Shown in pieces: positions 24,901-59,204 of a stretch of 64,000 nt of DNA (positions are counted from its first letter, which is position 1; each line of letters begins with the position of its first letter). This stretch comes from an uncultured Gemmatimonadota bacterium (GTDB lineage: Bacteria; JAAXHH01), in NCBI GenBank assembly GCA_951812955.1, contig OX638340.1, forward strand, positions 2,944,001-3,008,000. The letters run 5' to 3'. The notes under the pieces were generated by a model. That model had not been told where the DNA came from, made no database searches, and was given only the letters and a program-made list of their open reading frames with translations. The position numbers were made by a program, and so were the translations under genes.

Positions 24901-25535
24901 CCATCGTCGACGCCACGATCGTACACTACTACGCCTTTTACAGGACCTGGGGTTATTCCGTTCCGAAGCGTCTGCTTTGGACCCTGGGCTTTCTGCCGAA
25001 GGTCGTCTATTACATGGTGCTGGACAAAATCAGCAGAAGCCGTTTCAACCAGGTCTTCTACAGGCAATACCGGGGATTCGAGCGCGGCGAGTGCGTATCC
25101 CGCAGCGAACGCCTCTTCAACGAAGTCATGCGGCCGCGCATGTTCACCGGCGCCGTCGAACGCATTCGGGAGCATCAGCAAAGAGGCGAGCGCGTGGTCC
25201 TGGTCACCGGATCCCTCGATTTTATCGTGGAACCCCTCGCGGAGTACACCAAGGCCGACGATCTCATCGCCCTGTCCATGAAGGAGGAGAACGGCCGGCT
25301 GACGGGAGAGCCGGAAGGGCCGCCGATCGGCGACGAGGAGAAGGCCCGTATCGTCCGGGATTACGCCGAACGGCGCGGCATCGACCTGGACCGAAGTTAC
25401 GCCTATGCCGACAGCAGATCGGACCGGCCCATGCTGGACCTGGTGGGACACGCCGTCGTGGTGAACCCGGGCGGGAAACTCAGAAAGGCTGCGGAAGCCG
25501 GCGGCTGGGAAGTCGTTAGCTGGACCCACGTATGA
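21915..25535 (+). CDS. Tri-domain fusion: fatty acyl-CoA reductase (NAD_binding_4/male-sterility type) + ANL-superfamily acyl-adenylating domain + HAD-IB phosphatase-like domain
   Basis: N-terminus: LITGATGFLAKAV Rossmann fold and VSTAYV (Y-x-x-x-K) of FARs. Middle: GYGLTEAAPV and LHTGDIGYIDRDGYLYIADR adenylation motifs, but the P-loop is degenerate (FTRGMAAESHG versus TSGTTGxPKG). C-terminus: FFDVDGTIVD DxDGT motif and VLVTGS of HAD-IB. Confidence 0.75.
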   Translation: MSEIVTYLGGKTLLITGATGFLAKAVVEKILRCAPEVGRVYLVVRPRRKKDGTTLSAAERVEDEILQSAAFARLREMHGDRFAPFMAEKVHAVEGDLTLDHLGLEPELYRLLSEEVNVVMTCAASVTFDEEIDAALQLNALGARRMMEFARTCNRAILVHVSTAYVNGQLKGRIPEVPPRPDWSMAQEMGISDAPFDLEKEIRGILARAEEIHVASRSAVQQKRFRRSALQQNARPTQRWLDAQMETFRKRWLKEQLIEEGMRRGQQWGWHDSYTLTKAMGEQLIVKHRGELPTVIIRPSIVESSLVEPEPGWIEGLKVADPLIDAVSKGRLPDFPGDKDMIVDIIPVDMVVNSMLAAMEHTVREGGISVYHVSTGDRNPIRFQQAFELSYEYFLQHPRLNRNNEPIPIRRWTYPTLAQFRRRYNLRYVYPLNTALWVFNRFSRITFLNNWKRRITVLKSAISRMLYYASIYSPYTSLECTFETGRTVGLHERLGPDDRLLFNGDVSRIQWKTYFQDIHIPGLKRHVLKTDEPRPTVTEEEEVAERSGFTQAEDDPLPHLDTLTDILAKSADMYGDKTAMQMEREGVWVRYSFKDVHDLAGHMGWQWRSGGLHPGDRVLLFSENKPEWGIACFAGLVAGAVIVPVDRRSSAQEVWRIARFTGSKAVLCSESGFEMLKASEAPDLEVAFWNIDNYGLPFDASRPSASPVALNEEPPAWAPVQPDAPAAIMFTRGMAAESHGVVLSHRNFVSNLLSLAEILRAYRTDHFLSLLPMSQALEFTGGFLMPFYAGATITYTASVRPRSLVALMVESEINCLIAAPRIFGLMHRPLQRAARESDTDVVSRMRLLVSGGGTLASDLYHAYRDFGLTIHEGYGLTEAAPVVAVNPMDRSKPSSVGIALPEVDVRIANPDEDGKGEIVVRGSNVMLGYFENPSATEHRIRDGWLHTGDIGYIDRDGYLYIADRMERSRGSKDVPDGRPGNGKSRSATAFFDVDGTIVDATIVHYYAFYRTWGYSVPKRLLWTLGFLPKVVYYMVLDKISRSRFNQVFYRQYRGFERGECVSRSERLFNEVMRPRMFTGAVERIREHQQRGERVVLVTGSLDFIVEPLAEYTKADDLIALSMKEENGRLTGEPEGPPIGDEEKARIVRDYAERRGIDLDRSYAYADSRSDRPMLDLVGHAVVVNPGGKLRKAAEAGGWEVVSWTHV

Positions 25536-47098: not shown

Positions 47099-50000
47099 TC
47101 AGTTGAAAACGAACTCGGTCCACAGCCCGCCGCCTCGCCGAATCCGTTTCTGCCGGGTGATTACATTCAGCGTATTCGTAAACTCGAGCGTGACGCCGCC
47201 GCGGATGTACCTGCTGAACCGATAGTCCGTCGTGACCGAGAACCGGTTCTGATTCTGTCCGTTGCTGGGTTGGAAATCGCCGGCTATCCGCGATATAAGC
47301 GTCTCGTTGGTATTCCGGGTGTATTGCAGCCGGGCGTTAATGTCCCCGCTCGTCCGCTTCCCGAAGATCCGGATACCGGACCTGAGCCGGTAGTCCACCG
47401 CGACAGTGAGTGACCTGTTCTGCTGTTTCTGGTCGGTCGCGTTCCGTCCGAACTCGGTCAATCCGTCTAATGTTGTAAAGTTGCCTCGAATCACCACGCC
47501 CGCGTTCAGATCGAAGACGAAGCCGATCAGAGGAGACAGGGAAGTCGTGGTCGTCCGGGTGATACCGGCTTCACCAGGGTCCGTATCTCCCGCAGACCCC
47601 TGCGCGACCGCGGGGGCCACCTGCCCCAGGTCGGTGTTCTTCCCCTTGCGTCTCGAGTACCCGCTGGACAGTTCGATGCGGCGGAAGCTCCGGCCGAAGT
47701 CGCCCATGCTCCTGAGATTGGGACTCCACCGCAGGTTTACTTCAGGCCATGTGGTGTTATTCTGCTTCCGGTTCAGATTTGAGGACCGGTTATGGGTCGA
47801 CACCCACGTGGGCCGGATGGACAGGGTCGCGCCGCGTAACCGGATTCCCGTTCCCAGGTTGAAGGAAGACCGGTTCGCTTCCGACTCCTGGTTACGCTGG
47901 ATGCCGGTAACTCCGCCACCGGACCCCAGGGTATCGAACAGTACCGAGAAACTATCCGACAGCCCCATGCGTTCCCGCAAGGTCGGGCGGGATACCGCGT
48001 TGAAGAAGTTCTGGTTGCGGCTGATCGTGTAGTTCAGTGTGACCGGCGTGAAGTTACTCAAGACTGCGGCAAGCCGGTCCGACACGTTTCGTCGGAACCA
48101 TCCTGCGTCTTCTGGACTCGATCGTCGAGAAGATTCCCCGAGGACGTTCGATACCATTCTAGCCAAATTGACGTTCGTTCGCACGCCCTGCTGGTTGCTG
48201 AACGTGATGGTCCGCGCGCTTGGAGAAGCTCCGACAAGTTGCAACTGTGGATTCCGGTTCTCCGCGTAAGACGTGGTAAAGTTGTAGGACGGCCTGAACC
48301 AGGTCGTGATACCGGGACGATAGTCGACACCCAGGTTCTGGCGGTAGCTGGTTTCTGGACCGAATTCCAGCTTGGTAAAAGATACGGTGGAATCGGATTT
48401 CATGTCGTTGGAAACCGCGAGGTTGTAATTCATCCTCAAGGATCCGAAAGGTTCCATGATTGCCCGGATATTTCGGTTTAGATACCTGATGAAACGTTCG
48501 CCGCGGTCCGTACTTGCCGCCTCCGTTTCACCGGTGTTTCCGGCCACGACGGACTGCCTCGCCCTGTTGAGGTAGATCCGCCTGTCGCGATTTACTTCCG
48601 AGAACAACTCCAGTCGTACGGGCAGCGGGTTGAAAGTCAGTCCTGAAATAGACTCCGGCAATGGCATCCATCTTAGAATCGGCCACTGGATCTTAGAGCG
48701 CGGGGTCAGGTTGTAATGCAGTCGGGCCCGGTAGGAGCCGGACGTATCGATCCTGGAGACCGAGTGACGGAAATAACTGGTCGACGTGAAATCGAACCGG
48801 AATCGCTCCAGGGTCCAGGCGACGAAGGGATTCCTTGAACCGATACGCTTGGAGAAAGAAGCCGAAAACGAGCGGTCGTTGTTCTCCGTGCGCTGCGCTT
48901 CACGCTGTTCCTGGTTCAACAGGACGATATCGGACCCTACCTGCAACCGCGGCAGCCTCAGGTCGTTCTTCCAGCGGAGACGGAGTGGAATGGACAGTCC
49001 CCAGTCTTCCGGCAGCATGTTTCCCAGATTCAACAGGGAGGAAAAGTTTATCAAAGTGGATCTGCTCCCTGATTCTTCACCGCCAATCCTGCGGAAGTGA
49101 CTGCCCACGCTTCTGACGGTTCCGAACACTGATAAAACGTCGGCGAGATCGGCGTCGAACTTCAGTCGGCCGGCAAGTCCCCGGTCGCGCCTGACATCGC
49201 CCGCCCTCAGTTCGTCCAACCAGAGCTCACCTCCCACCAGAACCTGGTCGTAAGGATTGTAAATCCCCACTGTGATATGGCGAACACGGGCCAGGGCGGG
49301 TGAACCCAGAACCCTGTACTGCCTGTTTCCCTCCAGTTCGACTATGGCCAGCGTAAGCCCCTCATTTCGAGGACCATCCTTGAATCGCACGGGACGTGAA
49401 ATCCCGTCGCTCAGCGTAACCGCATAGGTCGTATCCGTTGTCGTCACCGTCCTCCGCGCTGTTTCCGTTTCGCTCTTGAGGACCGTCAGATCGTCGAAAA
49501 CGACCCTGAGATGGTTCGCTTCGTCCCATCCGGGCAAGACACGCGTCCGATATTCGTAATAGTCGAATTCTCCGCTTCCGAATCGAATAAAAAACTCGGG
49601 CGATCGGCCTGGTTCGAAGTTGTCCGAGCCGTGAATGTAAAGCCGCAGCGTGTTGTAGAGCGTATAGTCCTGATCGGAAAACAGCGTACGATAAGCCTGT
49701 GCGCTGTGGTGCGGCTGCAGGTTGGTATAGGTGATGATCAGGGACTGTTCCTTGTTCTGGAGGCCGGTCACCCGGTCGTACTCGATGATCGCACCGGGAG
49801 GCGACGTATATTCACCCGGATTGTCGTATGTGTTCTTCACGGCGACATCGAAAGTCTCTCCGGCGGCGGACAACGCGGAAGCAGGAACCGGATTGCCGGT
49901 GGAATCGGTTATCGCCCCGGTAAAGTCTTCCTGCCATTGGTTGCCGACGATATTGATGGAGGCGATACGCGTTTTTACCGGCTCGTCCACCTCCGTGATC

Positions 50001-53000
50001 CAAAGCCTGACCATTTCGATCCGCTCGAATGTCGGCATGCCCACCGAACCGGCGTAAGCGCGGTTCGCCAGGCCGGCAGCGCCTTCGGCCGTTTCTACAT
50101 CCGCACCGTCCTGGCGGTCCATGCCGTCCAACGACGGGTCCACACCGGCCGTCGCACCGAGGATTTCGGTGTCCAGCGGTATGCGGTACATGCGCCAGCT
50201 GTCCGGATTGCCCCAGTTGGAGCGATCCAGGTCGCCGCCGGCTACGAGCACCGTGTCATCGTGGTCCGGACTCAGATTCACGGCGAATTCGAAATAGTCG
50301 TTTTGTAAGTCCAGAAAGCCGGAGTAATCGAGATCTTCGGTATCGGGCCGACGGTTCTGATCCGGATCGTTGGCATTCACTTCCGGTCCGTTGATTTTGC
50401 TGTAGTCGACCTGGTCGACCGGCACGGAGCCACCCTTCGTACCTTTGAAGTGGAAGTTGTCCCCGTGTGGATCGGGGTTGCTCACCGGATCGTAACCGGC
50501 CTCCTCTTCGTCCCTCAGACCGTCCATCCCGATGTCTTCTTCCGGTTCCAGGAGGTTGTTGCCGAATCCGCCACTCCGGTCGTCTTCCGTATCCAGACTG
50601 TCGTTACCGTTGACATCCTCGCTGATTGCCCCGAGGTCGATATGCAGTTCGCCGCGATTCCCGTTCACCCATATCTCGATGAACCGGCTGCGCGTCTGGT
50701 CCACGTTGGCCCCGGAGAGCGGATGCATCAACCCGGCCCACCTGTTCAGCACGTCGCCCTGGCCGTTTTCCCGGCCGGGCGCGCTGAAGGTCGAGTCCGC
50801 AGACAAGCCGCCCCAGCGAAGGTCGGGTTCCGTGGGATCGTATTCCATGATCAGCACGTGCTGCAACTGGTCGCGGCCCGTGACCTCGCGGGTGGGGTAA
50901 ATCTGGCGGACATCGACCTGTTCGAGGGGATTGTACCAGATCATCCGGCCCCGCTGTTGGTGTTCGTATCGATCGGGTGGGCTGGCCGGCCGCCAGCCGC
51001 TCCGGCGCACGCCCAGGTCTGTTTCCTCCTTGCTTCCTTCGAAATCGTCGATAAACCCGTCGCCCAGGATATTGGGGTTGGGAACGCTCTGAGCCAGTTC
51101 GGCCTCGATGATCAACGAGGACGATTCGTCCGCCAGGTCCGCGGGGGAGATGAAATCCACGAAGGAAGTCAGAAAGTCAGGTTCGAACGCCAGCCGCGTA
51201 TCGATCCCCCACATCATGTACCGTCCGGTTTCACGGCCGATCCGGGACTTCTGCTCCAGGGACTTGTCGGACCGGTATAGAAATGTGCCTTTAATCCAGG
51301 ACTGTTCGCTGAACTGGTATTCACCCTGAAATCCCATCAGGGTGTTCGACACAGGCTTGAAGAACGGGGCAAACTGGAACTGGACGGTCACGTCCGCATC
51401 CGGGGTCAGAGCCTCCTCGTTCGTGAAACGGATCTGCCCGACTTCGTAGAGAATGATGTAATCGGTTCCCCGCTGCAGTTGCTGGCCGTTCAATCGCACG
51501 ATTTCACTCCCCTCGATGATATTGGTCCGCCCGAGGGAGTACTGGGACAACTGGTTACGGTATTCGACTTCAAGGAAGTACTTGTTCAGCCTGCTGTGCT
51601 GGCTGAAGATCTGTTCGCTCGAAAGATTATAGAACCCGGGCGTTTCATCGGGAAGGCCTTCGCCCTGCGTATTCGGATAGGCCAGTTGGCCGGCGGATGT
51701 TACGGTCAGGGCGGGCGCGAAGGGATACTGGTCCGGGAAAATCAGTTCCCCGCGTTCGAAATTGAACAACGCATAGTCGATGTCGACGATCCGGTCGGGC
51801 TCGGAACCGGGGTCCACCCCCCTCCGGTCGAGCCCCAGCAACTGGATGAAGGGCGTCCCGTTCTCGTCGACCTCACTGTGCTCGCCCTCGGACTGCAACT
51901 GGTAGATTCTCAATTCGAAATTGTTCGGATCGATGTCCGTCTGGCCGAGGTAATACACATTCCGCCACTCGTACTGCCAGGTGTCCCACTGGGCGGGATC
52001 GTCCGGGGCGGCGGGAGGGCGCTCCTGCTGCCGCTTGAGCAGGCGCAGCAGCGGGACGTCGCCTTCCAGTCGGCCGTACTTTTTGACTTCTCCGTTCTGG
52101 TTCACGGTCTCGTAGTATACTCCGAGCATGTCGTCTTCTTGCAAGGGCGTGTTCAACGCGATGTAGCCGAATTGCTGGTTTACGTAGAATTCGTCGGATT
52201 CCAGGTACCTGAACTTCCCTTCCACGAATTCACCCGCCTCGGAACCCTGGATGAGCACATCCTCCGAGTCGTACACGGGGGGATCCGGATAGGCATTGGC
52301 ATTGACCAGCTTGGCCTGGTTGGTCAGGGTGAGCCGTCCCGACACGTAGACCTGGATGACACGCACCGAGTCATCGGGCGCGACGCGGGACCCGTTTACG
52401 TCCCTGCGCGAGAAATCGCGGCGGTACTGCTCATCAATGAAATAGTAGGTCCTGCGCCTGAAGTCGAGGTCCCGGATCACCCGCTGAGACCCTTTGGTCC
52501 CGGCCTGGAACGTGGCGGATTCTCCTTCTCCCTTCTCCTGGCTGGCGATCGCGGTCAGGTGGAAGCTGCCGAGTTGGCCCGTCATTTTGACTCCAAACAA
52601 TCCGGTGTGCTGCTGCGTATAGCCCGTGAACTCCGTGTTCTTCAGATCGAGAGAAACGTTTCCAGCCTCGAAACTCTTCAGGATGCCGTTCCCATCCCGG
52701 CCGTCGTCGTAAACGTCCTGGTACCGAATGGCAAGGTTGTTGTCGAGGTCGGTGAACGCTTCGCTGTTCTGCTTGATGTTCACCTCGACCTTCTGGCCTA
52801 TGTTCCCGGAAACGGTAAACTCCTGGTTCTGCTTCATGGAAATGTTCGGTGCGCGAGAGAACCGGTTTGTCGCCGTACTCGCGCTGCCTTCCGTCCATTC
52901 GCTGGCCATGTCCATCTCGATGCGCTGGTTTCCGAGAATACGAATAACGGGCGTGCCGCCGCCCAGAAAAGTAGGCAGGTTCACCGGCAGATCGAGGGTC

Positions 53001-53401
53001 AGAAGGCCTTCCTGGCTCAGTCGGGTTTCGGTGTCGAAGACGTAGGACAGCACGGACGTTCGCCACAGTTTTTTGAATTGAGCCGCACTGCGAAGTCGGT
53101 AATATTGGTCAAAAGAGAGGACCAGGGGCACGCGGCGGCCAAGCCCCCGTTCTGCGTCTATGAAAGCCAGTAGCAGGAGGTCGGGATAGACGACGGTCCG
53201 GCCGCCCAAAGGCAACGGCCGGTCGGAGAGGGTACGCAGTGCCGGTCTGTTTTGCCCGCGGGCGATTTCGTCGACCTCATCGAAAGCAACGACGTGCAGG
53301 CGTGCGCTTTCGAGCCGGATCGCCGGGCCTTCCGCCAGTGCGGAGAAGGTCCACAGGGATATCAGCACGTGGCTGAAGACAATCGGACAAATGCGTTTCA
53401 T
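47099..53401 (-). CDS. sprA: Giant outer-membrane protein, SprA-like (T9SS translocon / gliding-motility cell-surface protein SprA family)
   Basis: 2100 aa with a signal peptide. Long beta-rich sequence of SprA character, ending in an aromatic beta-barrel C-terminus (..WTEFVFN). Plus-strand ORFs in this span are shadows. Confidence 0.6.
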   Translation of the reverse strand: MKRICPIVFSHVLISLWTFSALAEGPAIRLESARLHVVAFDEVDEIARGQNRPALRTLSDRPLPLGGRTVVYPDLLLLAFIDAERGLGRRVPLVLSFDQYYRLRSAAQFKKLWRTSVLSYVFDTETRLSQEGLLTLDLPVNLPTFLGGGTPVIRILGNQRIEMDMASEWTEGSASTATNRFSRAPNISMKQNQEFTVSGNIGQKVEVNIKQNSEAFTDLDNNLAIRYQDVYDDGRDGNGILKSFEAGNVSLDLKNTEFTGYTQQHTGLFGVKMTGQLGSFHLTAIASQEKGEGESATFQAGTKGSQRVIRDLDFRRRTYYFIDEQYRRDFSRRDVNGSRVAPDDSVRVIQVYVSGRLTLTNQAKLVNANAYPDPPVYDSEDVLIQGSEAGEFVEGKFRYLESDEFYVNQQFGYIALNTPLQEDDMLGVYYETVNQNGEVKKYGRLEGDVPLLRLLKRQQERPPAAPDDPAQWDTWQYEWRNVYYLGQTDIDPNNFELRIYQLQSEGEHSEVDENGTPFIQLLGLDRRGVDPGSEPDRIVDIDYALFNFERGELIFPDQYPFAPALTVTSAGQLAYPNTQGEGLPDETPGFYNLSSEQIFSQHSRLNKYFLEVEYRNQLSQYSLGRTNIIEGSEIVRLNGQQLQRGTDYIILYEVGQIRFTNEEALTPDADVTVQFQFAPFFKPVSNTLMGFQGEYQFSEQSWIKGTFLYRSDKSLEQKSRIGRETGRYMMWGIDTRLAFEPDFLTSFVDFISPADLADESSSLIIEAELAQSVPNPNILGDGFIDDFEGSKEETDLGVRRSGWRPASPPDRYEHQQRGRMIWYNPLEQVDVRQIYPTREVTGRDQLQHVLIMEYDPTEPDLRWGGLSADSTFSAPGRENGQGDVLNRWAGLMHPLSGANVDQTRSRFIEIWVNGNRGELHIDLGAISEDVNGNDSLDTEDDRSGGFGNNLLEPEEDIGMDGLRDEEEAGYDPVSNPDPHGDNFHFKGTKGGSVPVDQVDYSKINGPEVNANDPDQNRRPDTEDLDYSGFLDLQNDYFEFAVNLSPDHDDTVLVAGGDLDRSNWGNPDSWRMYRIPLDTEILGATAGVDPSLDGMDRQDGADVETAEGAAGLANRAYAGSVGMPTFERIEMVRLWITEVDEPVKTRIASINIVGNQWQEDFTGAITDSTGNPVPASALSAAGETFDVAVKNTYDNPGEYTSPPGAIIEYDRVTGLQNKEQSLIITYTNLQPHHSAQAYRTLFSDQDYTLYNTLRLYIHGSDNFEPGRSPEFFIRFGSGEFDYYEYRTRVLPGWDEANHLRVVFDDLTVLKSETETARRTVTTTDTTYAVTLSDGISRPVRFKDGPRNEGLTLAIVELEGNRQYRVLGSPALARVRHITVGIYNPYDQVLVGGELWLDELRAGDVRRDRGLAGRLKFDADLADVLSVFGTVRSVGSHFRRIGGEESGSRSTLINFSSLLNLGNMLPEDWGLSIPLRLRWKNDLRLPRLQVGSDIVLLNQEQREAQRTENNDRSFSASFSKRIGSRNPFVAWTLERFRFDFTSTSYFRHSVSRIDTSGSYRARLHYNLTPRSKIQWPILRWMPLPESISGLTFNPLPVRLELFSEVNRDRRIYLNRARQSVVAGNTGETEAASTDRGERFIRYLNRNIRAIMEPFGSLRMNYNLAVSNDMKSDSTVSFTKLEFGPETSYRQNLGVDYRPGITTWFRPSYNFTTSYAENRNPQLQLVGASPSARTITFSNQQGVRTNVNLARMVSNVLGESSRRSSPEDAGWFRRNVSDRLAAVLSNFTPVTLNYTISRNQNFFNAVSRPTLRERMGLSDSFSVLFDTLGSGGGVTGIQRNQESEANRSSFNLGTGIRLRGATLSIRPTWVSTHNRSSNLNRKQNNTTWPEVNLRWSPNLRSMGDFGRSFRRIELSSGYSRRKGKNTDLGQVAPAVAQGSAGDTDPGEAGITRTTTTSLSPLIGFVFDLNAGVVIRGNFTTLDGLTEFGRNATDQKQQNRSLTVAVDYRLRSGIRIFGKRTSGDINARLQYTRNTNETLISRIAGDFQPSNGQNQNRFSVTTDYRFSRYIRGGVTLEFTNTLNVITRQKRIRRGGGLWTEFVFN

Positions 53402-53596
53402 AGATTAACGAAAATAAACCGGGGGAGCGACACTCGCAACACCTGATCATACGTTGGAAGGACGCCCGGCGGGTACCTCGCGTTCCATGGCGGGAACCCG
53501 GAGGTAAAAGACTTGACAGGGACCGGAGCCGGGATTAGGGTACACGGGAACCGCTCGGAATCCGATTTCAATAAAGAACCCCGGAGTTCGCTTCCC

Positions 53597-53713
53597 ATGG
53601 AACAGCAAACCGCCGAATTGACCACGGGTGGATGGGTCTTTCTCGTGATCGCATGGACCGTGATCACAGGGTTGACCGCCGCTTGTTTTCTCCGGGTAAG
53701 AAAGCTGAAATAG
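53597..53713 (+). CDS. Possible small membrane protein (38 aa)
   Basis: A GGAG lies 9 nt upstream of the ATG. One TM helix (WVFLVIAWTVITGLTAACFL). Confidence 0.3.
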   Translation: MEQQTAELTTGGWVFLVIAWTVITGLTAACFLRVRKLK

Positions 53714-53903
53714 GATTCTGCCCCCGCCAGGTTGTCCTGGGGTCTCCCGTTTCGTCTTCCAGTCCGCCTCCCTCTCCGCCTTAAATCGCTGCCGATCCTC
53801 CGGCGTCGATTACCAGCCGTCAGCCCCGAACCACGTGCTTCGAACAACGCGTCATCCCGTCCCGAACGCGGCATGCCGTCCCATTCTAAATGCGCGCCCT
53901 GCT

Positions 53904-53932
53904 TGACATTTGGGCGTTTTTGCCGTATCCTG
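53904..53932 (+). promoter_or_regulatory. Sigma70-like promoter (TTGACA-17-TATCCT) upstream of moaD
   Basis: Consensus -35 with 17-nt spacer ~45 nt upstream of the ATG at 53976. AAAGGA RBS. Confidence 0.45.
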
Positions 53933-53975
53933 TAACGGTTTTCCCGACTTGGAATGATGCCTGCAAAGGACAGCC

Positions 53976-54233
53976 ATGCGGATCATCGTCAAATGTTTCG
54001 CCGGGTGCAGAGACGCGGTAGGCTCGACATCGGTCTCCGTGGAGTTCCCGGACGGCACCACCGTGGGCGAGGCCTTTGCGGAGCTCATTGATTCATATCC
54101 CGCACTGGCGAGTTATGACCGGAGCGTGATGCTGGCCGTGAACCGCGATTACGCCGACCGGCAGGTCGTGCTCGCGGATGGCGACGAACTGGCGTGCATT
54201 CCGCCTGTGAGCGGCGGCGCTACACGGCGTTGA
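53976..54233 (+). CDS. moaD: MoaD/ThiS-family sulfur carrier protein with 4-residue extension after the Gly-Gly (..PPVSGG-ATRR)
   Basis: Beta-grasp MoaD-like sequence. The codons after GG were read directly: gct aca cgg cgt tga. Confidence 0.7.
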   Translation: MRIIVKCFAGCRDAVGSTSVSVEFPDGTTVGEAFAELIDSYPALASYDRSVMLAVNRDYADRQVVLADGDELACIPPVSGGATRR

Positions 54234-54317
54234 CGCGGATCAGCAGAGGCTGATTCAGTCACCGGCGTTTACGCGGTTCAGCGGCGGCAGTCTTCGATAA
54301 AGGACGAAATCAGGCCC

Positions 54318-54731
54318 GTGTACAAGATCATTGACGAATACATCAAGCCGGATGCCCTCTTCGAGTGGTCCCTCAAGCCCCATCACGGCGCAGTAGTCAC
54401 CTTCGCCGGTACCGTGCGGGACAATACGGATGGCCGGCGGACGCTGCGGCTGGAATACGAGGCCTATGCCGAGATGGCCGAAGCCAAGATGCGGGAAGTG
54501 GGCGCGGAAATCCGCGAAAGATGGGGTATTGAAGACGTCGCCATGATTCATCGGGTCGGCACACTCGAAATCGGGGAGATCAGCATCCTGATCTCCGTGG
54601 CGTCCCCTCACCGCAAGAACGCATTCGAGGCCTGTTCCTACGCGATCGACCGCGTCAAGCAGATCGTGCCCGTCTGGAAGAAGGAAATCTGGGCAGACGG
54701 GGAGCGGGAATGGGTGGAACGTAATACCTGA
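54318..54731 (+). CDS. moaE: Molybdopterin synthase catalytic subunit MoaE
   Basis: VVTFAGTVRD ... HRVGTLEIGEISILISVASPHRKNAFEACSYAIDRVKQIVPVWKKE are MoaE blocks. GTG start. Confidence 0.85.
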   Translation: MYKIIDEYIKPDALFEWSLKPHHGAVVTFAGTVRDNTDGRRTLRLEYEAYAEMAEAKMREVGAEIRERWGIEDVAMIHRVGTLEIGEISILISVASPHRKNAFEACSYAIDRVKQIVPVWKKEIWADGEREWVERNT

Positions 54732-54746
54732 AATCCGGTCCCTGTC

Positions 54747-55898
54747 ATGATAAACCTAGACCACGGCGCGGCGCCGCCGGTTGACTCCCGTGTCATCGAA
54801 GAGATGGCGCCCTGCCTCCGCGAATACACCGGCAATCCTTCAAGCCTTCACCAGGCGGGTGCGCTTGCGCGCAACGTACTGGAACTGGCACGCGGCCGGG
54901 TCTCGGCACTGATCGGTGCCGATCCCGGCGAGATCGTATTCACCGCAAACGGAACGGAAGCGGACAACCTGGCCGTCAAGGGCCTGGCCCAGGCGAGAGC
55001 GAATCACGGGCGGCACATCGTCATTTCCAGTATCGAGCATCATGCCGTGCTGTATGCCGCGAAGGCGATGGAACGACAGGGATTCACGGTCACCCAGGTT
55101 CCGGCGGACGGGGACGGCATCGTGCCGCCCGACGGGATTGCGCGGGCCATGCGGGACGACACCATCCTCGTCTCCGTTACGCTCGCTAACGACGAAACAG
55201 GTACGATACAGCCCGTGCGCGAAATCGCCGAGATCGCCCACGGCAACGGTGCGGTCATCCATTCCGATGCCGTGGCCGCGATGGGGCGCCTGCCTGTAGA
55301 TGTTCACGATTTAGAGGTCGATGCCTTGTCCATTTCCGCCCGACCCCTGAACGGCCCGCCCGGCGCCGGCGCCCTCTATGTGAAGGAGGGTACCCGGCTT
55401 CGTCCCCAGGTGGAAGGGGGCGTGCAGGAAGACGGCCGCCGCGGCGGACATGAGAACATCCCCGCAATCGTGGGTTTCGGCAGGGCGGCGGAACTGGCGG
55501 CGGTGGAGTTGCCGGCCCGGATCGACCGATTGAAGCGGCTGGATGCATCGATGTTTCTTGGCCTGAAGGACCGCCTGCCGGATGTCTCCATCAATGGGCA
55601 CGAGACCCTGCGTCTGCCCGGGCACCTGAACCTGTGGATACCGGAGGTCGACGGGGAATCCCTGGTCCTGATGCTCGACGCCCGGGGGATTGCCGCTTCC
55701 GTTGGATCCTCCTGCACCGCCCAGGTGTCCAAGCCGTCCCACGTGCTTCTGGCCCTGGGACGGACGGCGGCCGAAGCCCGCTGCTCGCTGCTGCTCACCG
55801 CCGGTCCGGACACGGCCGAAGGCGAGGTCGGCGAGGCACTTGACGCCCTGACCGAGGTCGTGGGAGCGTTGCGGGCCATCGCGGGTGTGAGCGCATGA
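54747..55898 (+). CDS. Cysteine desulfurase (NifS/IscS) homolog lacking the PLP Schiff-base lysine (SISARP in place of SFSGHK)
   Basis: Collinear with E. coli IscS across the full length (IVFTANGTEADNLAVKG, AMRDDTILVSV, HSDA, GSSCTAQ...PSHVL). At the PLP site the DNA reads tcc att tcc gcc cga ccc = S-I-S-A-R-P. Confidence 0.7.
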   Translation: MINLDHGAAPPVDSRVIEEMAPCLREYTGNPSSLHQAGALARNVLELARGRVSALIGADPGEIVFTANGTEADNLAVKGLAQARANHGRHIVISSIEHHAVLYAAKAMERQGFTVTQVPADGDGIVPPDGIARAMRDDTILVSVTLANDETGTIQPVREIAEIAHGNGAVIHSDAVAAMGRLPVDVHDLEVDALSISARPLNGPPGAGALYVKEGTRLRPQVEGGVQEDGRRGGHENIPAIVGFGRAAELAAVELPARIDRLKRLDASMFLGLKDRLPDVSINGHETLRLPGHLNLWIPEVDGESLVLMLDARGIAASVGSSCTAQVSKPSHVLLALGRTAAEARCSLLLTAGPDTAEGEVGEALDALTEVVGALRAIAGVSA

Positions 55899-56128
55899 TG
55901 AGGCCGGCAATGACCCTGGATACATTCGGCCTGCTCTGTCCCGTGCCGATCATGAAAACCGCGTCGGCCATCCGGGAGATCTCCGTGGGCGAAGTCCTGG
56001 AAGTGCTGGCAGACGATCCCCAGATCCTGGAGGACATGCCGGCCTGGTGCGCGAGTAATGGACACGCGCTGCTCGACACCATAGAGGAAAACGAGGAATT
56101 CAAACTATACGTGCGAAAGGTAAAGTGA
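55895..56128 (+). CDS. TusA-like sulfurtransferase (SirA/YedF/YeeD family)
   Basis: 77 aa with a conserved LCPVPIM (C-P-x-P) motif. A 4-nt overlap with the upstream gene. Confidence 0.8.
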   Translation: MMRPAMTLDTFGLLCPVPIMKTASAIREISVGEVLEVLADDPQILEDMPAWCASNGHALLDTIEENEEFKLYVRKVK

Positions 56129-56232
56129 TTGCTCTGGCGTATCGCCGGATGTAGATTGCGCATCGAGATTCAGTTCGCGCGAAAGAATTTAGTAGGAACG
56201 AAACGCCGATATGCCACCGGTAGGAGAAAAAG

Positions 56233-57318
56233 ATGGCCCATGAAGTGACCATGCGGGACGTGGTGGACCGACTGAAGCAGATCATGTACCCGGGATTCGA
56301 CCGCGACATCGTCTCCTTCGGCCTGGTTAAGAACGTACAGGCCTCCGGCGGCCACGTGGCCTTCAGCCTGGCCTTTTCCACGCAGGACGAAGCTTTGCGG
56401 CGTCAGATCACCATGACGGCGAAAGAAGCGGTGGAGCGCATTCCCGGTGTGCACGACGTGCAGATCACCGGTCCGCCGCCGGGACAATCGGCCACGGCAC
56501 AGGGCCCCGCGGCGGGGCAATCGGGACAGCCCGGACAGCCCGGGCAGCCCGGCAAGATCGAACTGCCCGGCGTAAAGACCATCGTGGCAGTGGCCAGCGG
56601 CAAGGGCGGCGTGGGCAAATCCACGGTCTCGGTGAACCTGTCGGTGGCCCTGGCCGACGCCGGCGCGAGCGTGGGCTTGCTCGATGCAGATATTTACGGC
56701 CCCAGCATACCGACGATGATGGGCGTCAAGGACCAGCCCGGGGTGGTCGGTCAGAAAATCCTGCCCATGATCGCCCACGACATAAAGATGATGTCCTTCG
56801 GCTTCCTGATCCCGGAGGACCAGTCGGTCACCTGGCGCGGACCCATGGTCCACCAGGCCGTGCAGCAACTGCTGCGCGACGTCCTGTGGGGAGAACTGGA
56901 CTGCCTCGTCATCGACATGCCGCCGGGCACGGGAGACGCGCACCTTACGCTTACCCAGTCCGTGCCACTGACCGGCGGTCTGGTAGTAACGACGCCGCAG
57001 GACGTGGCCCTCATCGACGCGCGGCGCGGCGTGGCCATGTTCCAGCAGGTCAACGTACCCATACTCGGCATCATCGAAAACATGAGCTATTTCAAATGTC
57101 CCCACTGCGGCGACCGTACGGATATCTTCACGACGGGCGGAGGGAGAAAGGCCAGCGAAGCGCTGGGCGTGCCCTTCGTCGGCGAATTGCCCATCGATCC
57201 GGCGGTCTGCCTGGCGGGCGACCAGGGTACCCCCATCGTCCGGAGGGAACCGGACTCGCAGCAGACGGATGCCTTCCGCCAGGTGGCGGACACGTTGCGG
57301 CAATCGATCGGGGTATAA
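56233..57318 (+). CDS. apbC: Mrp/NBP35 (ApbC) Fe-S cluster carrier ATPase with N-terminal MIP18/DUF59 domain and internal (QPG)n insert
   Basis: Deviant Walker A (ASGKGGVGKST), a C-x-x-C motif (FKCPHCG) and an N-terminal DUF59. Confidence 0.85.
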   Translation: MAHEVTMRDVVDRLKQIMYPGFDRDIVSFGLVKNVQASGGHVAFSLAFSTQDEALRRQITMTAKEAVERIPGVHDVQITGPPPGQSATAQGPAAGQSGQPGQPGQPGKIELPGVKTIVAVASGKGGVGKSTVSVNLSVALADAGASVGLLDADIYGPSIPTMMGVKDQPGVVGQKILPMIAHDIKMMSFGFLIPEDQSVTWRGPMVHQAVQQLLRDVLWGELDCLVIDMPPGTGDAHLTLTQSVPLTGGLVVTTPQDVALIDARRGVAMFQQVNVPILGIIENMSYFKCPHCGDRTDIFTTGGGRKASEALGVPFVGELPIDPAVCLAGDQGTPIVRREPDSQQTDAFRQVADTLRQSIGV

Positions 57319-57332
57319 AGGGGAAAGCGACC

Positions 57333-58373
57333 ATGTCCAAATCCGTGAAAGCAGTCGGACTGCTGTCCGGCGGCCTGGACAGTACGATCGCGGCCGCCAT
57401 GCTGATGCGCCAGGGCATCGAAGTCCAGGGACTCACGTTCTACACCGGTTTCTGCGTGGTGGAACACAATCGAAGGTCCAAGACGCGGAAGCGCAAGAAA
57501 CCGGTGCGCAACGAGGCCCTGCAGGCCGGCGCCAAACTGGACTTGCCCGTGGAGATGATCGACATATCGGGACCGGACTACCTCAAGGTACTCACTGATC
57601 CCAAATACGGATACGGCTCGGCCGTGAACCCGTGTATCGACTGCCGCATTTTCATGTTCCGGCGTGCCCGTCAGTACATGGACGAGATCGGCGCCCAGTT
57701 CATGTTTACCGGCGAGGTCCTCGGACAGCGGCCCATGTCACAGCGCCGCCAGCCCATGAATGTCATCGACCGGGACGCGGAGCTGGACGGCCTGCTGCTG
57801 CGGCCGCTTTCCGCCAAGAAGCTGCCGCCCACGGTGCCGGAAGAGAAGGGGTGGGTCGACCGGGAGCAACTGGGCGACATCCAGGGCCGTTCCAGGCAGC
57901 AACAGATGGAGCTGGCCGAGGAGTACGGCATCGAGGACTATCCATCCCCCGCGGGTGGATGCTGCTTTCTGACCGACAAGAACTTCGGCCGGCGCATCCT
58001 CGACTTCTTCGAACACGAGGGCAAAGAGAACCTGACCATGGACGACGTGATGCTGCTCAAGATCGGCCGCCACTTCCGCGTCAAGCCCGACGTGAAGGTG
58101 GTGATGGGCAGGGAAGAAGGGGAGAACAAGTTCCTCGAACGCTACACGCCCGGCCGGTGGAGACTGGAGACGAAGGACGTCACGGGTCCGACCACCCTCG
58201 TCGAGGGCCATCCTACCGACGACGACCTCCGGCGGATCGCCGGCATGACCGTACGGTACGCGGGGTCGAAGGCCGATCCCGGCGCCACAGTGGCCTGCCG
58301 CTACGAAGATTCCGAGCGCACCCTCGAGCCGTCCCCGGTGGAAGAGTCTGTTGTGGAGGAATGGCGGATATAG
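57333..58373 (+). CDS. ThiI-like PP-loop ATP pyrophosphatase lacking THUMP domain, with ~100-aa uncharacterised C-terminal extension
   Basis: LLSGGLDST PP-loop; FTGEVLGQRPMSQ and LLRPL blocks align to the E. coli ThiI adenylation domain. Confidence 0.6.
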   Translation: MSKSVKAVGLLSGGLDSTIAAAMLMRQGIEVQGLTFYTGFCVVEHNRRSKTRKRKKPVRNEALQAGAKLDLPVEMIDISGPDYLKVLTDPKYGYGSAVNPCIDCRIFMFRRARQYMDEIGAQFMFTGEVLGQRPMSQRRQPMNVIDRDAELDGLLLRPLSAKKLPPTVPEEKGWVDREQLGDIQGRSRQQQMELAEEYGIEDYPSPAGGCCFLTDKNFGRRILDFFEHEGKENLTMDDVMLLKIGRHFRVKPDVKVVMGREEGENKFLERYTPGRWRLETKDVTGPTTLVEGHPTDDDLRRIAGMTVRYAGSKADPGATVACRYEDSERTLEPSPVEESVVEEWRI

Positions 58374-58581
58374 GGTATAACGAATTGCCGGCCTGAGAAG
58401 TCATCAGCGTGCAAATCGACCATAAAACCCACTTGCCTGACAGCTCTAAAGCCGGATAACCGGTTTTTGTTCGCTAGATTGTGAATACCAATCTCGACTG
58501 AAATAAGTAGCTATATTGAGGCTACAAGGAGATCGTTCATTGTGAATGCTGTTACAGTGAAGAATCTCCTCTTGTTCGCTA

Positions 58582-58610
58582 TTGACAAGTGATTATTGTC
58601 ACTTTACATT
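58582..58610 (+). promoter_or_regulatory. Promoter (TTGACA-17-TACATT) with embedded inverted repeat TGACAA..TTGTCA, candidate HigA operator
   Basis: Lies immediately upstream of the higB start (58615), in a low-GC patch. Confidence 0.4.
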
Positions 58611-58614
58611 CTGA

Positions 58615-58893
58615 ATGGTACGCAGCTTCCGACATCGTGGACTCAGACGCCTCTACAAGCGCGGCGATGCCAGCCTCATTCGTACCGACCTGCGCGAAAG
58701 AGTCGAAGTGATGCTGGCACAACTCGAAGTGGCAGGTACCGTGAACGCTATGCGCCTGCCTCGATACCGGTTACACGCTCTCAAAGGAGATCTTAAAGGC
58801 TACTGGTCGGTCACCGTGAAGGCCAACTGGCGCATCACCTTCCGCTTCGAGCACGGGGATGTCTACGACGTAGATTTGACTGATTACCACTGA
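58615..58893 (+). CDS. higB: HigB-like toxin (RelE/ParE superfamily mRNA interferase)
   Basis: 92 aa; RLYKRGD...LHALKGDLKGYWSV motif of HigB/'plasmid maintenance system killer'. Confidence 0.8.
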   Translation: MVRSFRHRGLRRLYKRGDASLIRTDLRERVEVMLAQLEVAGTVNAMRLPRYRLHALKGDLKGYWSVTVKANWRITFRFEHGDVYDVDLTDYH

Positions 58894-58910
58894 AGAAAGT
58901 AGGACTGAAA

Positions 58911-59204
58911 ATGCCCATGAAGAACCCGCCACATCCCGGTAAGGTGGTACGCGTGTCGTGCCTGGAACCGCTCAACCTCAGCGTGACCGATGGCGCGAAG
59001 GTGTTGGGCGTCAGCCGTCAGGCGCTATCGAATCTGGTGAATTGCCATTCGCGGATTTCCGGCGACATGGCGGTCCGGCTGGCAAAGGCCTTCGGCTCGA
59101 CCACGGAGACCTGGATACGTCTTCAGGCGGCTTACGACATCGCCCAGGCACAGGACCGAGAGGATCAGATCGAGGTTGAGCGTTACGTTCCACATGCGGT
59201 CTGA
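58911..59204 (+). CDS. higA: HigA antitoxin (XRE-family HTH)
   Basis: HTH block VTDGAKVLGVSRQALSNLVN. Lies immediately downstream of higB (toxin-first Hig order). Confidence 0.8.
   Translation: MPMKNPPHPGKVVRVSCLEPLNLSVTDGAKVLGVSRQALSNLVNCHSRISGDMAVRLAKAFGSTTETWIRLQAAYDIAQAQDREDQIEVERYVPHAV

What the first reader, a model, noticed from the sequence alone, without database searches (positions are those of the whole stretch)
54747..55898. IscS/NifS homolog without the PLP-binding lysine
The protein is collinear with E. coli IscS across the full length, including the catalytic Cys loop (GSSCTAQ...PSHVL). At the PLP site the invariant His-Lys (SFSGHK) is replaced by Arg-Pro (SISARP), which I read directly from the codons. 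Without the Schiff-base lysine, canonical PLP chemistry is unlikely. It may be a pseudo-desulfurase or scaffold within the adjacent sulfur-relay cluster, or act on a different substrate (for example a persulfide or selenium carrier).
Basis: seen in the sequence. Interest (0 to 1): 0.6.

Follow-up and report, generated by a model that had tools for sequence, protein, structure and literature searches.

The report
IscS-like protein without catalytic lysine
This gene encodes an intact, conserved copy of the sulfur-mobilising enzyme IscS that has lost the lysine and four other residues needed for its chemistry but kept its sulfur-carrying cysteine, so it is most likely a non-catalytic relay or scaffold in a sulfur-transfer operon, a kind of protein already known from one archaeon.

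Summary
ORF 54747-55898 (+) encodes a 383-aa, full-length group-I IscS/NifS homologue. The PLP-site His-Lys is Arg199-Pro200 (codons CGA CCC, 55341-55346).

- **Not a sequencing error or pseudogene.** All 73 full-length orthologues lack the Lys. dN/dS is 0.20-0.28, which is purifying but 2-4x more relaxed than the neighbouring genes.
- **The loss is coordinated.** N155D, Q183A, H205R, T243H and R354L (E. coli numbering) are also changed. These sites are 92-99% canonical in 160 Lys-bearing homologues. Cys323, His98 (H104) and Asp174 (D180) are retained.
- **Conserved operon.** The gene sits in MoaD-like / MoaE / IscS-like / TusA / Mrp-ApbC / ThiI-like PP-loop+NFACT-R. The operon recurs in 20 Gemmatimonadota-type species MAGs and in relatives only 54-60% identical.
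- **Precedent exists.** The best structural match is the Archaeoglobus fulgidus IscS (4hvk), a characterised Lys-less, inactive paralogue that binds PMP non-covalently. It is proposed to give a Cys ligand to the cluster on IscU.

So the kind is known. This is a bacterial variant with a different substitution set and different partners (TusA and Mrp, no IscU). The most likely role is a Cys-loop-dependent sulfur or Fe-S relay, or a docking subunit. Biochemistry is untested.

The parts
53903..53931 (+). Promoter-like site (TTGACA-17-TATCCT) upstream of the six-gene cluster
   Evidence: Consensus scan. It found 2 sites against 1.2 expected, so this is weak evidence. No Rfam riboswitch is present in 53300-58700.
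53976..54233 (+). MoaD/ThiS-like sulfur-carrier protein (85 aa) with a Gly-Gly followed by a 4-residue tail (GGATRR)
   Evidence: Pfam ThiS 9.6e-15 and NCBIfam moaD 60.6 bits. The tail after GG varies from 2 to 25 aa among orthologues.
54318..54731 (+). MoaE, molybdopterin synthase catalytic subunit
   Evidence: Pfam MoaE 1.9e-41.
54747..55898 (+). IscS/NifS-like protein (383 aa) without the PLP lysine; the finding itself
   Evidence: The AF2 model has pLDDT 94. The best PDB fold match is 4hvk, TM 0.93/0.96.
55341..55346 (+). Codons CGA CCC = Arg199-Pro200, in place of the His205-Lys206 of E. coli IscS
   Evidence: Read from the sequence. Alignment.
55713..55715 (+). Codon TGC = Cys323, equivalent to the persulfide-carrying Cys328 of IscS
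   Evidence: Invariant in 73/73 full-length orthologues. The surrounding loop has pLDDT about 60, as expected for a mobile loop.
55782..55793 (+). Cys346 (clade-specific, 92% conserved) to Leu349 (replaces the substrate-binding Arg354)
   Evidence: At this column R is found in 159/160 Lys-bearing homologues and L in 76/79 of this clade.
55895..56128 (+). TusA sulfur-carrier protein (77 aa, CPxP cysteine); its start overlaps the IscS-like stop (ATGA)
   Evidence: Pfam TusA 1.3e-23 and NCBIfam TusA 63.4 bits. The overlap is read.
56233..57318 (+). Mrp/ApbC/NUBPL-type Fe-S cluster carrier ATPase with an N-terminal FeS_assembly_P domain
   Evidence: Pfam ParA/NUBPL 4e-103 and FeS_assembly_P 7e-11. 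NCBIfam ApbC 318.9 bits.
57333..58373 (+). ThiI-like PP-loop ATPase fused to a C-terminal NFACT-R_2 domain (346 aa); a predicted tRNA thiouridine synthase
   Evidence: Pfam ThiI 3.9e-12 and NFACT-R_2 2.8e-21. Only remote PDB matches, to MnmA and ThiI. The family was described in PMC4075521.

Best explanation
The gene encodes a non-catalytic paralogue of a group-I cysteine desulfurase. It keeps the IscS fold, the mobile loop with Cys323, and a strongly conserved basic docking surface. It has lost the Schiff-base lysine and the residues that hold the PLP O3' and the cysteine substrate, so it cannot take sulfur from free cysteine.

It is co-transcribed with TusA, an Mrp/ApbC Fe-S carrier, a ThiI-like/NFACT-R thiolase and MoaD/MoaE.

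**Most likely role (inferred).** It acts as a docking and relay subunit. Its Cys323 loop either carries a persulfide exchanged with TusA, or supplies a cysteine ligand to a nascent Fe-S cluster on the neighbouring carrier. The second option is what has been proposed for A. fulgidus IscS with IscU. Either way it would serve tRNA thiolation and molybdopterin synthesis. The sulfur itself must come from another source, such as a housekeeping desulfurase or sulfide.

**Shown:** loss of the catalytic residues, retention of the Cys, selection, synteny and fold.
**Inferred:** no desulfurase activity, the partner contacts and the direction of sulfur flow.
For: **(1) Coordinated loss of catalytic residues.**
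- In this clade: K206 becomes P/S/T, N155D in 78/79, Q183A, H205R in 73/79, T243H in 71/79 and R354L in 76/79.
- In 160 Lys-bearing homologues the same columns are 92-99% canonical.
- 8 type-II divergence sites were found, 5 of them (N155, H205, T243, A327, R354) at known cofactor/substrate or Cys-loop positions.

**(2) Still under selection.**
- The ORF is intact at 383 aa in all 20 species MAGs.
- dN/dS is 0.20-0.28, against 0.03-0.24 for the five neighbours.

**(3) Relay features kept.**
- Cys323 is invariant, and the loop is predicted to be flexible.
- Arg110, Arg217, Arg219 and Arg231 are invariant. They lie at positions that form the ThiI/CyaY/IscX footprint on E. coli IscS (PMC2854127).
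- The IscS Asp52 / TusA Arg31 salt-bridge pair is kept as D/E46 with R/K27.

**(4) Conserved context.**
- The six-gene order MoaD-MoaE-IscSL-TusA-Mrp-PPloop is conserved down to 54-60% identity, with unrelated flanks.
- There is a 4-bp ATGA overlap with TusA.

**(5) Precedent.**
- The best fold match is A. fulgidus IscS 4hvk, at 42% identity and rmsd 1.3 A.
- That protein lacks the Lys (Asp199) and has no desulfurase activity.
- It is proposed to act as a scaffold giving a Cys ligand to the [2Fe-2S] cluster on IscU (PMC7585200; PMC8918507).

**(6) A published pathway prediction fits.** The ThiI+NFACT-R/TusA pathway, which sometimes includes an IscS-like protein, was predicted independently as an alternative s4U route (PMC4075521).
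Against: - No biochemistry exists for any member of this clade.
- His98 (H104), Asp174 (D180), Thr70 (T76) and Ser197 (S203) are retained, and the new Arg199 and His235 could still bind a phosphate. A non-covalently bound B6 vitamer or another ligand, and some residual or different chemistry, therefore cannot be excluded. A. fulgidus IscS does bind PMP.
- No IscU gene lies in the cluster, so the A. fulgidus mechanism cannot be transferred directly.
- Only part of the E. coli TusA interface is conserved. W45 and E49 are not.
- I could not check whether the same genome carries a canonical desulfurase. None is in the 64-kb window.
- The relaxed dN/dS would also fit a merely structural role.
Confidence: 0.6

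Rival explanations
1. It is still an enzyme. It would use a non-covalently bound B6 cofactor (PMP or PLP) or a remodelled pocket (Arg199, His235, Asp149, His98, Asp174) to act on a different substrate or to bind a different phosphorylated ligand. One example is a sensor or a lyase unrelated to cysteine desulfuration.
For: - The ring-stacking His, the pyridine-N Asp and the phosphate-binding Thr and Ser are invariant.
- The replacements at H205, T243 and N155 are themselves conserved in the clade: R 93%, H 92%, D 100%. That looks like selection for a new pocket rather than decay.
- A. fulgidus IscS retains bound PMP although it has no Lys.
Against: - The Lys is the general base of all fold-type-I PLP chemistry.
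- The column itself is unconstrained (S/P/T/L/Q/A/Y/H).
- The substrate-carboxylate Arg354 is lost.
- The conserved Arg/His/Asp may simply fill and stabilise an empty pocket.
- No characterised Lys-less fold-type-I enzyme is catalytically active, to my knowledge.
Confidence: 0.17
2. It is a regulatory pseudoenzyme that works by heterodimerising with, or competing against, a canonical IscS/NifS paralogue elsewhere in the genome. It would steer or throttle sulfur flow to TusA rather than carry sulfur itself.
For: - IscS active sites are built across the dimer. T243 and the Cys328 loop act in trans (PMC2854127).
- Pseudoenzyme paralogues often act this way (general knowledge).
- The constraint is relaxed but real.
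Against: - No canonical group-I paralogue was seen in the window, or among the named Gemmatimonadota hits.
- The invariant Cys323 would not be needed for a purely regulatory role.
- Tight operon linkage with acceptors argues for direct participation.
Confidence: 0.15
3. It is a decaying gene or an assembly or sequencing artefact.
For: - It is the fastest-evolving gene of the cluster in the closest comparison: 92% identity against 97-100% for the neighbours in L001.
Against: - The full-length ORF is kept in every orthologue.
- dN/dS is 0.2-0.28.
- The same substitutions appear in independent assemblies and in lineages down to 52% identity.
- The AF2 model is confident.
Confidence: 0.02

Closest known systems
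Archaeoglobus fulgidus IscS (AF0564; PDB 4hvk, 4eb5, 4r5f), the 'inactive cysteine desulfurase paralog'
   Same: - Group-I IscS fold, 42-43% identity, TM 0.93-0.96.
- The PLP Lys is missing.
- Q183A and R354L are also shared (alignment).
- The catalytic-loop Cys is retained, as are the H104, D180, T76 and S203 equivalents.
   Different: - The substitutions differ: Af has Asn-Asp at 205/206, keeps N155 and has Ser at 243. This clade has Arg-Pro/Ser, Asp149 and His235.
- Af IscS is paired with IscU. This one is paired with TusA and Mrp/ApbC, with no IscU gene.
- One is an archaeal sulfate reducer, the other a set of Gemmatimonadota-type bacterial MAGs.
- In the NJ tree the two do not group together (3% of bootstrap replicates).
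Lys-less IscS-like proteins of Chloroflexi-type MAGs (e.g. P0080, P0110) and Methanosarcina acetivorans IscS1
   Same: - They share the loss of Lys, Q183 and R354 and keep the Cys.
- They are the nearest neighbours of this clade in 74% of NJ bootstrap replicates.
- A TusA gene is also present in their cluster.
- M. acetivorans IscS1 is reported to lack the Lys (PMC7585200).
   Different: - They have K206Q and N155G and keep T243.
- Their cluster is IscSL-IscU-Zn-ribbon-DsrE2-TusA. It has no MoaD/MoaE, Mrp or ThiI-NFACT-R.
E. coli IscS-TusA sulfur relay for mnm5s2U and Moco
   Same: - IscS homologue plus TusA, with MoaD/MoaE and a tRNA thiolase as likely downstream users.
- The R55 and D52 contact positions are conserved.
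   Different: - E. coli IscS is an active PLP enzyme and is the sulfur source. Here the IscS-like protein cannot be the source.
- The W45 and E49 contacts are not conserved.
Predicted ThiI+NFACT-R (DUF814)/TusA pathway for tRNA 4-thiouridylation (Burroughs & Aravind 2014, PMC4075521)
   Same: - The window's PP-loop protein has exactly this architecture, with TusA adjacent.
- That paper notes an IscS-like neighbour in a subset of genomes.
   Different: - The paper assumed the IscS-like protein abstracts sulfur from cysteine. In this clade it lacks the residues to do so.
- In 80 metagenomic loci of the family, TusA is adjacent in 14 and an IscS-like gene in about 6. Of the 3 with readable active sites, 2 are Lys-less; a fourth, partial one has R354L.

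Membership tests
Group-I (IscS/NifS) cysteine desulfurases | Fold-type-I / class-V aminotransferase fold, collinear over the full length | tested here: met
   Pfam Aminotran_5 4e-64. Aligns to 1p3w over residues 2-378. Foldseek TM 0.93-0.95 to IscS and NFS1.
Group-I (IscS/NifS) cysteine desulfurases | Schiff-base lysine (E. coli K206) in the S-x-H-K motif | tested here: not met
   Arg199-Pro200 in the window. No Lys at this column in any of 79 orthologues.
Group-I (IscS/NifS) cysteine desulfurases | Cofactor and substrate ligands N155, Q183, H205, T243 and R354 | tested here: not met
   They are D, A, R, H and L in the window. The same columns are 92-99% canonical in 160 Lys-bearing homologues.
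Group-I (IscS/NifS) cysteine desulfurases | Catalytic Cys on a long flexible loop (SSGSAC) | tested here: met
   GSSC323 is invariant. The loop has pLDDT about 60.
Group-I (IscS/NifS) cysteine desulfurases | Score above the curated equivalog cut-offs (NifS, IscS) | tested here: not met
   NifS 402.5 against 530.75 and IscS 314.6 against 643.2.
Group-I (IscS/NifS) cysteine desulfurases | L-cysteine desulfurase activity | not testable with these tools
   Needs an enzyme assay.
Inactive Lys-less IscS paralogues (A. fulgidus IscS type) | IscS fold without the PLP Lys but with the loop Cys | tested here: met
Inactive Lys-less IscS paralogues (A. fulgidus IscS type) | Partnered with, and encoded next to, an IscU scaffold | tested here: not met
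   No NifU_N/IscU gene in the cluster in the window or in any of the 25 orthologous loci. TusA and Mrp/ApbC are there instead.
Inactive Lys-less IscS paralogues (A. fulgidus IscS type) | Non-covalent PMP in the old cofactor site; Cys ligand to a [2Fe-2S] cluster | not testable with these tools
   Known for A. fulgidus only, from crystal structures.
Inactive Lys-less IscS paralogues (A. fulgidus IscS type) | Common descent with the A. fulgidus protein | tested here: inconclusive
   In the NJ tree built without active-site columns, the clade sits among other Lys-less sequences in 74% of replicates. A. fulgidus IscS joins it in only 3%.
ThiI+NFACT-R / TusA predicted s4U system | ThiI-like PP-loop with a C-terminal NFACT-R domain, CxxC plus an internal Cys, and an adjacent TusA with a conserved Cys | tested here: met
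   Pfam ThiI plus NFACT-R_2. C101, C104, C210 and C211 are invariant. TusA is two genes upstream and carries the CPxP Cys.

The most novel reading that the evidence does not exclude
The Lys-less IscS-like protein is a PLP-independent sulfur hub that works in the reverse direction to IscS. It would accept a persulfide from TusA on Cys323, possibly relaying it through the clade-specific Cys346. It would then build or load the Fe-S cluster of the Mrp carrier and the ThiI-like thiolase. This would couple tRNA thiolation and molybdopterin synthesis to a sulfur source other than free cysteine.

The recurring link between Lys-less IscS homologues and TusA in two unrelated operon types (Gemmatimonadota and Chloroflexi) would then mark a widespread, unrecognised class of sulfur-relay pseudo-desulfurases in bacteria.
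Probability: 0.2. Interest if true: 0.7.

Novelty: new variant of a known kind. Interest (0 to 1): 0.45.

Why it matters
Inactive IscS paralogues have so far been discussed as an archaeal oddity tied to IscU and sulfide-rich, anaerobic life.

Here the same loss is fixed and under selection in a bacterial lineage, and it is wired to TusA, an Mrp/ApbC carrier, a predicted alternative s4U synthase and molybdopterin synthase.

About one in ten of the nearest 150 sequence clusters (50% identity) also lack the lysine, by my count. Automatic annotation as 'cysteine desulfurase' is therefore wrong for a sizeable group, and metabolic reconstructions may over-count sulfur-mobilising capacity.

The operon gives a compact, testable system for asking two questions:
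- What does an IscS scaffold do once it can no longer desulfurate cysteine?
- Where does the sulfur for the ThiI-NFACT-R pathway come from?

Tried and rejected
- **Sequencing error or compensated frameshift at 55340-55350.** Rejected. The +1 frame has a stop codon, and all orthologues share the loss.
- **Pseudogene.** Rejected by dN/dS and by the intact ORFs.
- **Compensating lysine.** Lys329, just after the Cys loop, is conserved at 96% and was considered. The same column is also Lys in Lys-bearing homologues such as 9wep, and it is not a pocket position. Rejected as a Schiff-base substitute, but not measured in 3D because the model coordinates are not exposed.
- **Selenium metabolism.** There is no SelD in this clade's context, and TusA scores above YedF. 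No support.
- **Moco riboswitch or other RNA element upstream.** None found.
- **A canonical desulfurase in the same genome.** None is in the 64-kb window.
- **General pairing of the ThiI-NFACT-R family with Lys-less IscS.** Only about 6 of 80 loci have an IscS-like neighbour. It is not a general rule.
- **Original A. fulgidus papers.** PMID 23160436 and 25447670 are not held in the library. I used the secondary descriptions in PMC7585200 and PMC8918507.

Full report
**Observation**

ORF 54747-55898 (+) is real: 383 aa, ATG start, TGA stop. It is a full-length homologue of group-I cysteine desulfurases.
- Pfam Aminotran_5, 4e-64.
- E. coli IscS 1p3w, query 2-378 aligned to chain 5-383, E 1.9e-76.
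- It stays below every curated NCBIfam cut-off: NifS 402.5 against 530.75 bits, IscS 314.6 against 643.2.

The segment DALSISARPLNGPPG aligns to E. coli DLMSFSGHKIYGPKG. Arg199 (CGA, 55341-55343) stands for His205 and Pro200 (CCC, 55344-55346) for the Schiff-base Lys206. The Cys loop GSSC323 is present. Its numbering agrees with the residues named in PMC2854127: W45, E49, D52, R55, R220, R237 and C328.

**Not an error, and not only the lysine**

A search of 5.8 billion proteins gave about 79 orthologue clusters at 52-94% identity, named Gemmatimonadetes/Gemmatimonadota where a name exists. None has Lys at this column: S 34, P 30, T 8, L 2, Q 2, and A, Y, H once each.

Four more residues that bind the cofactor or substrate in IscS are replaced, and the replacements are themselves conserved:

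| E. coli position | Replacement in this clade | Frequency (of 79) |
|---|---|---|
| N155 | D | 78 |
| Q183 | A (or S/C) | A 67 |
| H205 | R | 73 |
| T243 | H | 71 |
| R354 | L | 76 |

In 160 Lys-bearing homologues from the same searches, these columns are N 99%, Q 97.5%, H 92%, T 99% and R 99%. Retained are T76, H104, D180, S203 and C328.

A comparison of clade against canonical conservation found eight type-II sites. It also found a clade-specific Cys346, conserved at 92%, three residues before Leu349.

**Selection**

The gene is intact and 383 aa long in every orthologous locus. Nei-Gojobori dN/dS against nine relatives with unsaturated dS is 0.20-0.28. The other genes give:
- MoaE, Mrp and the PP-loop gene: 0.03-0.16.
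- MoaD and TusA: 0.00-0.24.

It is therefore under purifying selection, but 2-4 times more relaxed than its catalytic neighbours. It is the fastest-evolving member of the cluster in the closest comparison: 92% identity against 97-100% for the neighbours.

**Structure**

AlphaFold2 with a 125-sequence alignment gives mean pLDDT 94 and pTM 0.92. The only internal low-confidence stretch is residues about 321-330, the Cys loop, as expected for the mobile loop of type-I enzymes.

[quoted passage not shown] Human NFS1 and E. coli IscS, including the IscS-TusA complex 3lvj, follow closely. The model coordinates are not exposed, so I could not inspect the pocket.

**Context**

The gene is the third of six co-oriented genes:

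| Coordinates | Gene |
|---|---|
| 53976-54233 | MoaD/ThiS-like carrier |
| 54318-54731 | MoaE |
| 54747-55898 | IscS-like |
| 55895-56128 | TusA (ATGA overlap with the IscS-like stop) |
| 56233-57318 | Mrp/ApbC with FeS_assembly_P domain |
| 57333-58373 | ThiI-like PP-loop ATPase with C-terminal NFACT-R_2 |

This order is kept in 20 species-level MAGs of the GTDB collection. It is also kept in more distant relatives (54-60% identity) whose flanking genes are unrelated.

There is a promoter-like hexamer pair at 53903-53931. No Rfam element and no internal terminator stands out.

The PP-loop protein belongs to the ThiI+DUF814 family. Burroughs and Aravind predicted that this family, together with TusA, forms an alternative tRNA 4-thiouridylation pathway, with an IscS-like neighbour in a subset of genomes (PMC4075521). 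Its CxxC and CC cysteines are invariant.

**How widespread is the loss?**

Among the 150 best 50%-identity cluster representatives, I counted about 16 without the Lys in the alignment. Lys-less sequences almost never keep Q183 or R354.

A Chloroflexi-type group (K206Q, N155G) sits in an IscSL-IscU-Zn-ribbon-DsrE2-TusA cluster. Another Lys-less protein lies next to a MoCF_biosynth gene.

I built an NJ tree without the active-site columns.
- The Gemmatimonadota-type clade has 100% bootstrap support.
- It sits among other Lys-less sequences in 74% of replicates.
- A. fulgidus IscS groups elsewhere, joining in only 3% of replicates.
- Fitch parsimony needs about 5 state changes on the tree.

The loss is therefore old and has probably happened a few times.

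**What is known**

A. fulgidus IscS has Asp in place of the Lys and has no desulfurase activity. It carries non-covalently bound PMP. In the IscS-IscU(D35A) complex it gives its loop Cys as the fourth ligand of the [2Fe-2S] cluster. It was therefore proposed to be a scaffold subunit, with sulfide as the likely sulfur source (PMC7585200; PMC8918507; PMC13066941). M. acetivorans IscS1 also lacks the Lys. A 2021 review of bacterial desulfurases does not mention such proteins in bacteria.

**Interpretation**

The protein cannot perform the PLP chemistry that defines the family. The Lys, the O3' ligands and the substrate Arg are all gone. Yet it is maintained.

What selection preserves is informative:
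- The loop Cys.
- The fold.
- A basic surface of invariant Arg110, Arg217, Arg219 and Arg231. It corresponds to the E. coli IscS patch (R116, R225, E227, M239) where mutations abolish ThiI, CyaY and IscX binding.
- Part of the TusA interface: the acidic D52 equivalent with the basic R31 equivalent of TusA, and the invariant R55.

I therefore favour a non-catalytic docking and relay subunit. Its Cys loop would exchange a persulfide with TusA and/or ligate a cluster on the Mrp carrier or the thiolase, serving tRNA thiolation and MoaD/MoaE. My confidence is about 0.6. Which of the two sub-mechanisms applies is open.

Rivals:
- A remodelled ligand-binding or catalytic pocket (0.17), suggested by the conserved Arg/His/Asp replacements and the retained H104 and D180.
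- A regulatory heterodimer with a canonical paralogue (0.15).
- Decay or artefact (0.02, refuted).

**Limits**
- There is no biochemistry.
- I could not scan the complete genomes for a canonical desulfurase, an E1 or a JAMM protease.
- Pocket geometry was not inspected.
- The interface argument rests on homology to E. coli.

**Verdict**

The kind of protein, an inactive Lys-less IscS paralogue, is already known. This is a new bacterial variant with its own substitution pattern and a different partner set. It is moderately interesting.

Noticed in passing
window 53976-54233, and the MoaD genes of L001-L029: The MoaD/ThiS-like carrier does not end at the Gly-Gly. It carries a tail (GGATRR here) that varies from 2 to about 25 residues among orthologues. 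It would therefore need C-terminal processing before thiocarboxylation. No JAMM-type protease or E1 gene lies in the window.
   Followed up: partly
window 58615-59204: A HigB-like toxin and HTH antitoxin pair sits between the PP-loop gene and the Abhydrolase_2 gene. In the closest relative (L001) these two genes are only about 130 bp apart, so the toxin-antitoxin pair is a recent insertion in this genome.
   Followed up: partly
L009 8001-10521; L034 474-3007: Chloroflexi-type Lys-less IscS-like genes (K206Q) lie in a conserved IscSL-IscU-Zn-ribbon-DsrE2-TusA cluster. In L009 this is preceded by Rrf2, a PALP (CysK-like) gene and an AIRS-family gene. This is a second operon type that links a Lys-less IscS homologue to TusA.
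   Followed up: partly
L032 4190-7194; L033 1391-4395: Another Lys-less IscS-like protein (P0123, SAQQ motif) overlaps the end of a Complex1_51K/NADH_4Fe-4S gene and follows a MoCF_biosynth (MogA/MoaB-like) gene. This is a further link between Lys-less IscS homologues and molybdenum-cofactor genes.
   Followed up: no
window 55782-55784 (Cys346) and Arg110/217/219/231 of the IscS-like protein: Two clade-specific features were found. One is a second conserved cysteine three residues before the lost Arg354 position. The other is an invariant four-arginine surface patch. Neither is present in canonical homologues.
   Followed up: partly
window 13759-15687 (-): An aldehyde:ferredoxin oxidoreductase (AFOR_N and AFOR_C domains), a tungsto-/molybdopterin enzyme, lies 40 kb upstream. 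It is a possible client of the MoaD/MoaE genes, and is unusual for a lineage usually regarded as aerobic.
   Followed up: no
window 47099-53401 (-): A 2100-aa SprA-like protein is encoded divergently from the cluster. Its orthologue in L001 carries PF14349 (SprA_N), the type-IX secretion translocon. It is conserved next to the cluster in the close relatives only.
   Followed up: no
PDB 9wep/9wer/9wew/9wfe/9wf8/9wfb/9wfy: The best sequence match among solved structures is a series of seven near-identical 406-aa 'cysteine desulfurase' entries that differ at a few active-site residues. They carry the Lys, yet they group inside the mostly Lys-less neighbourhood in the NJ tree. Their origin was not looked up.
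   Followed up: no
window 21915-25535 (+): A 1206-aa fusion protein combines a NAD_binding_4/Sterile reductase domain, an AMP-binding adenylation domain and a HAD phosphatase domain. This is an unusual architecture, resembling a carboxylic-acid or fatty-acyl reductase.
   Followed up: no
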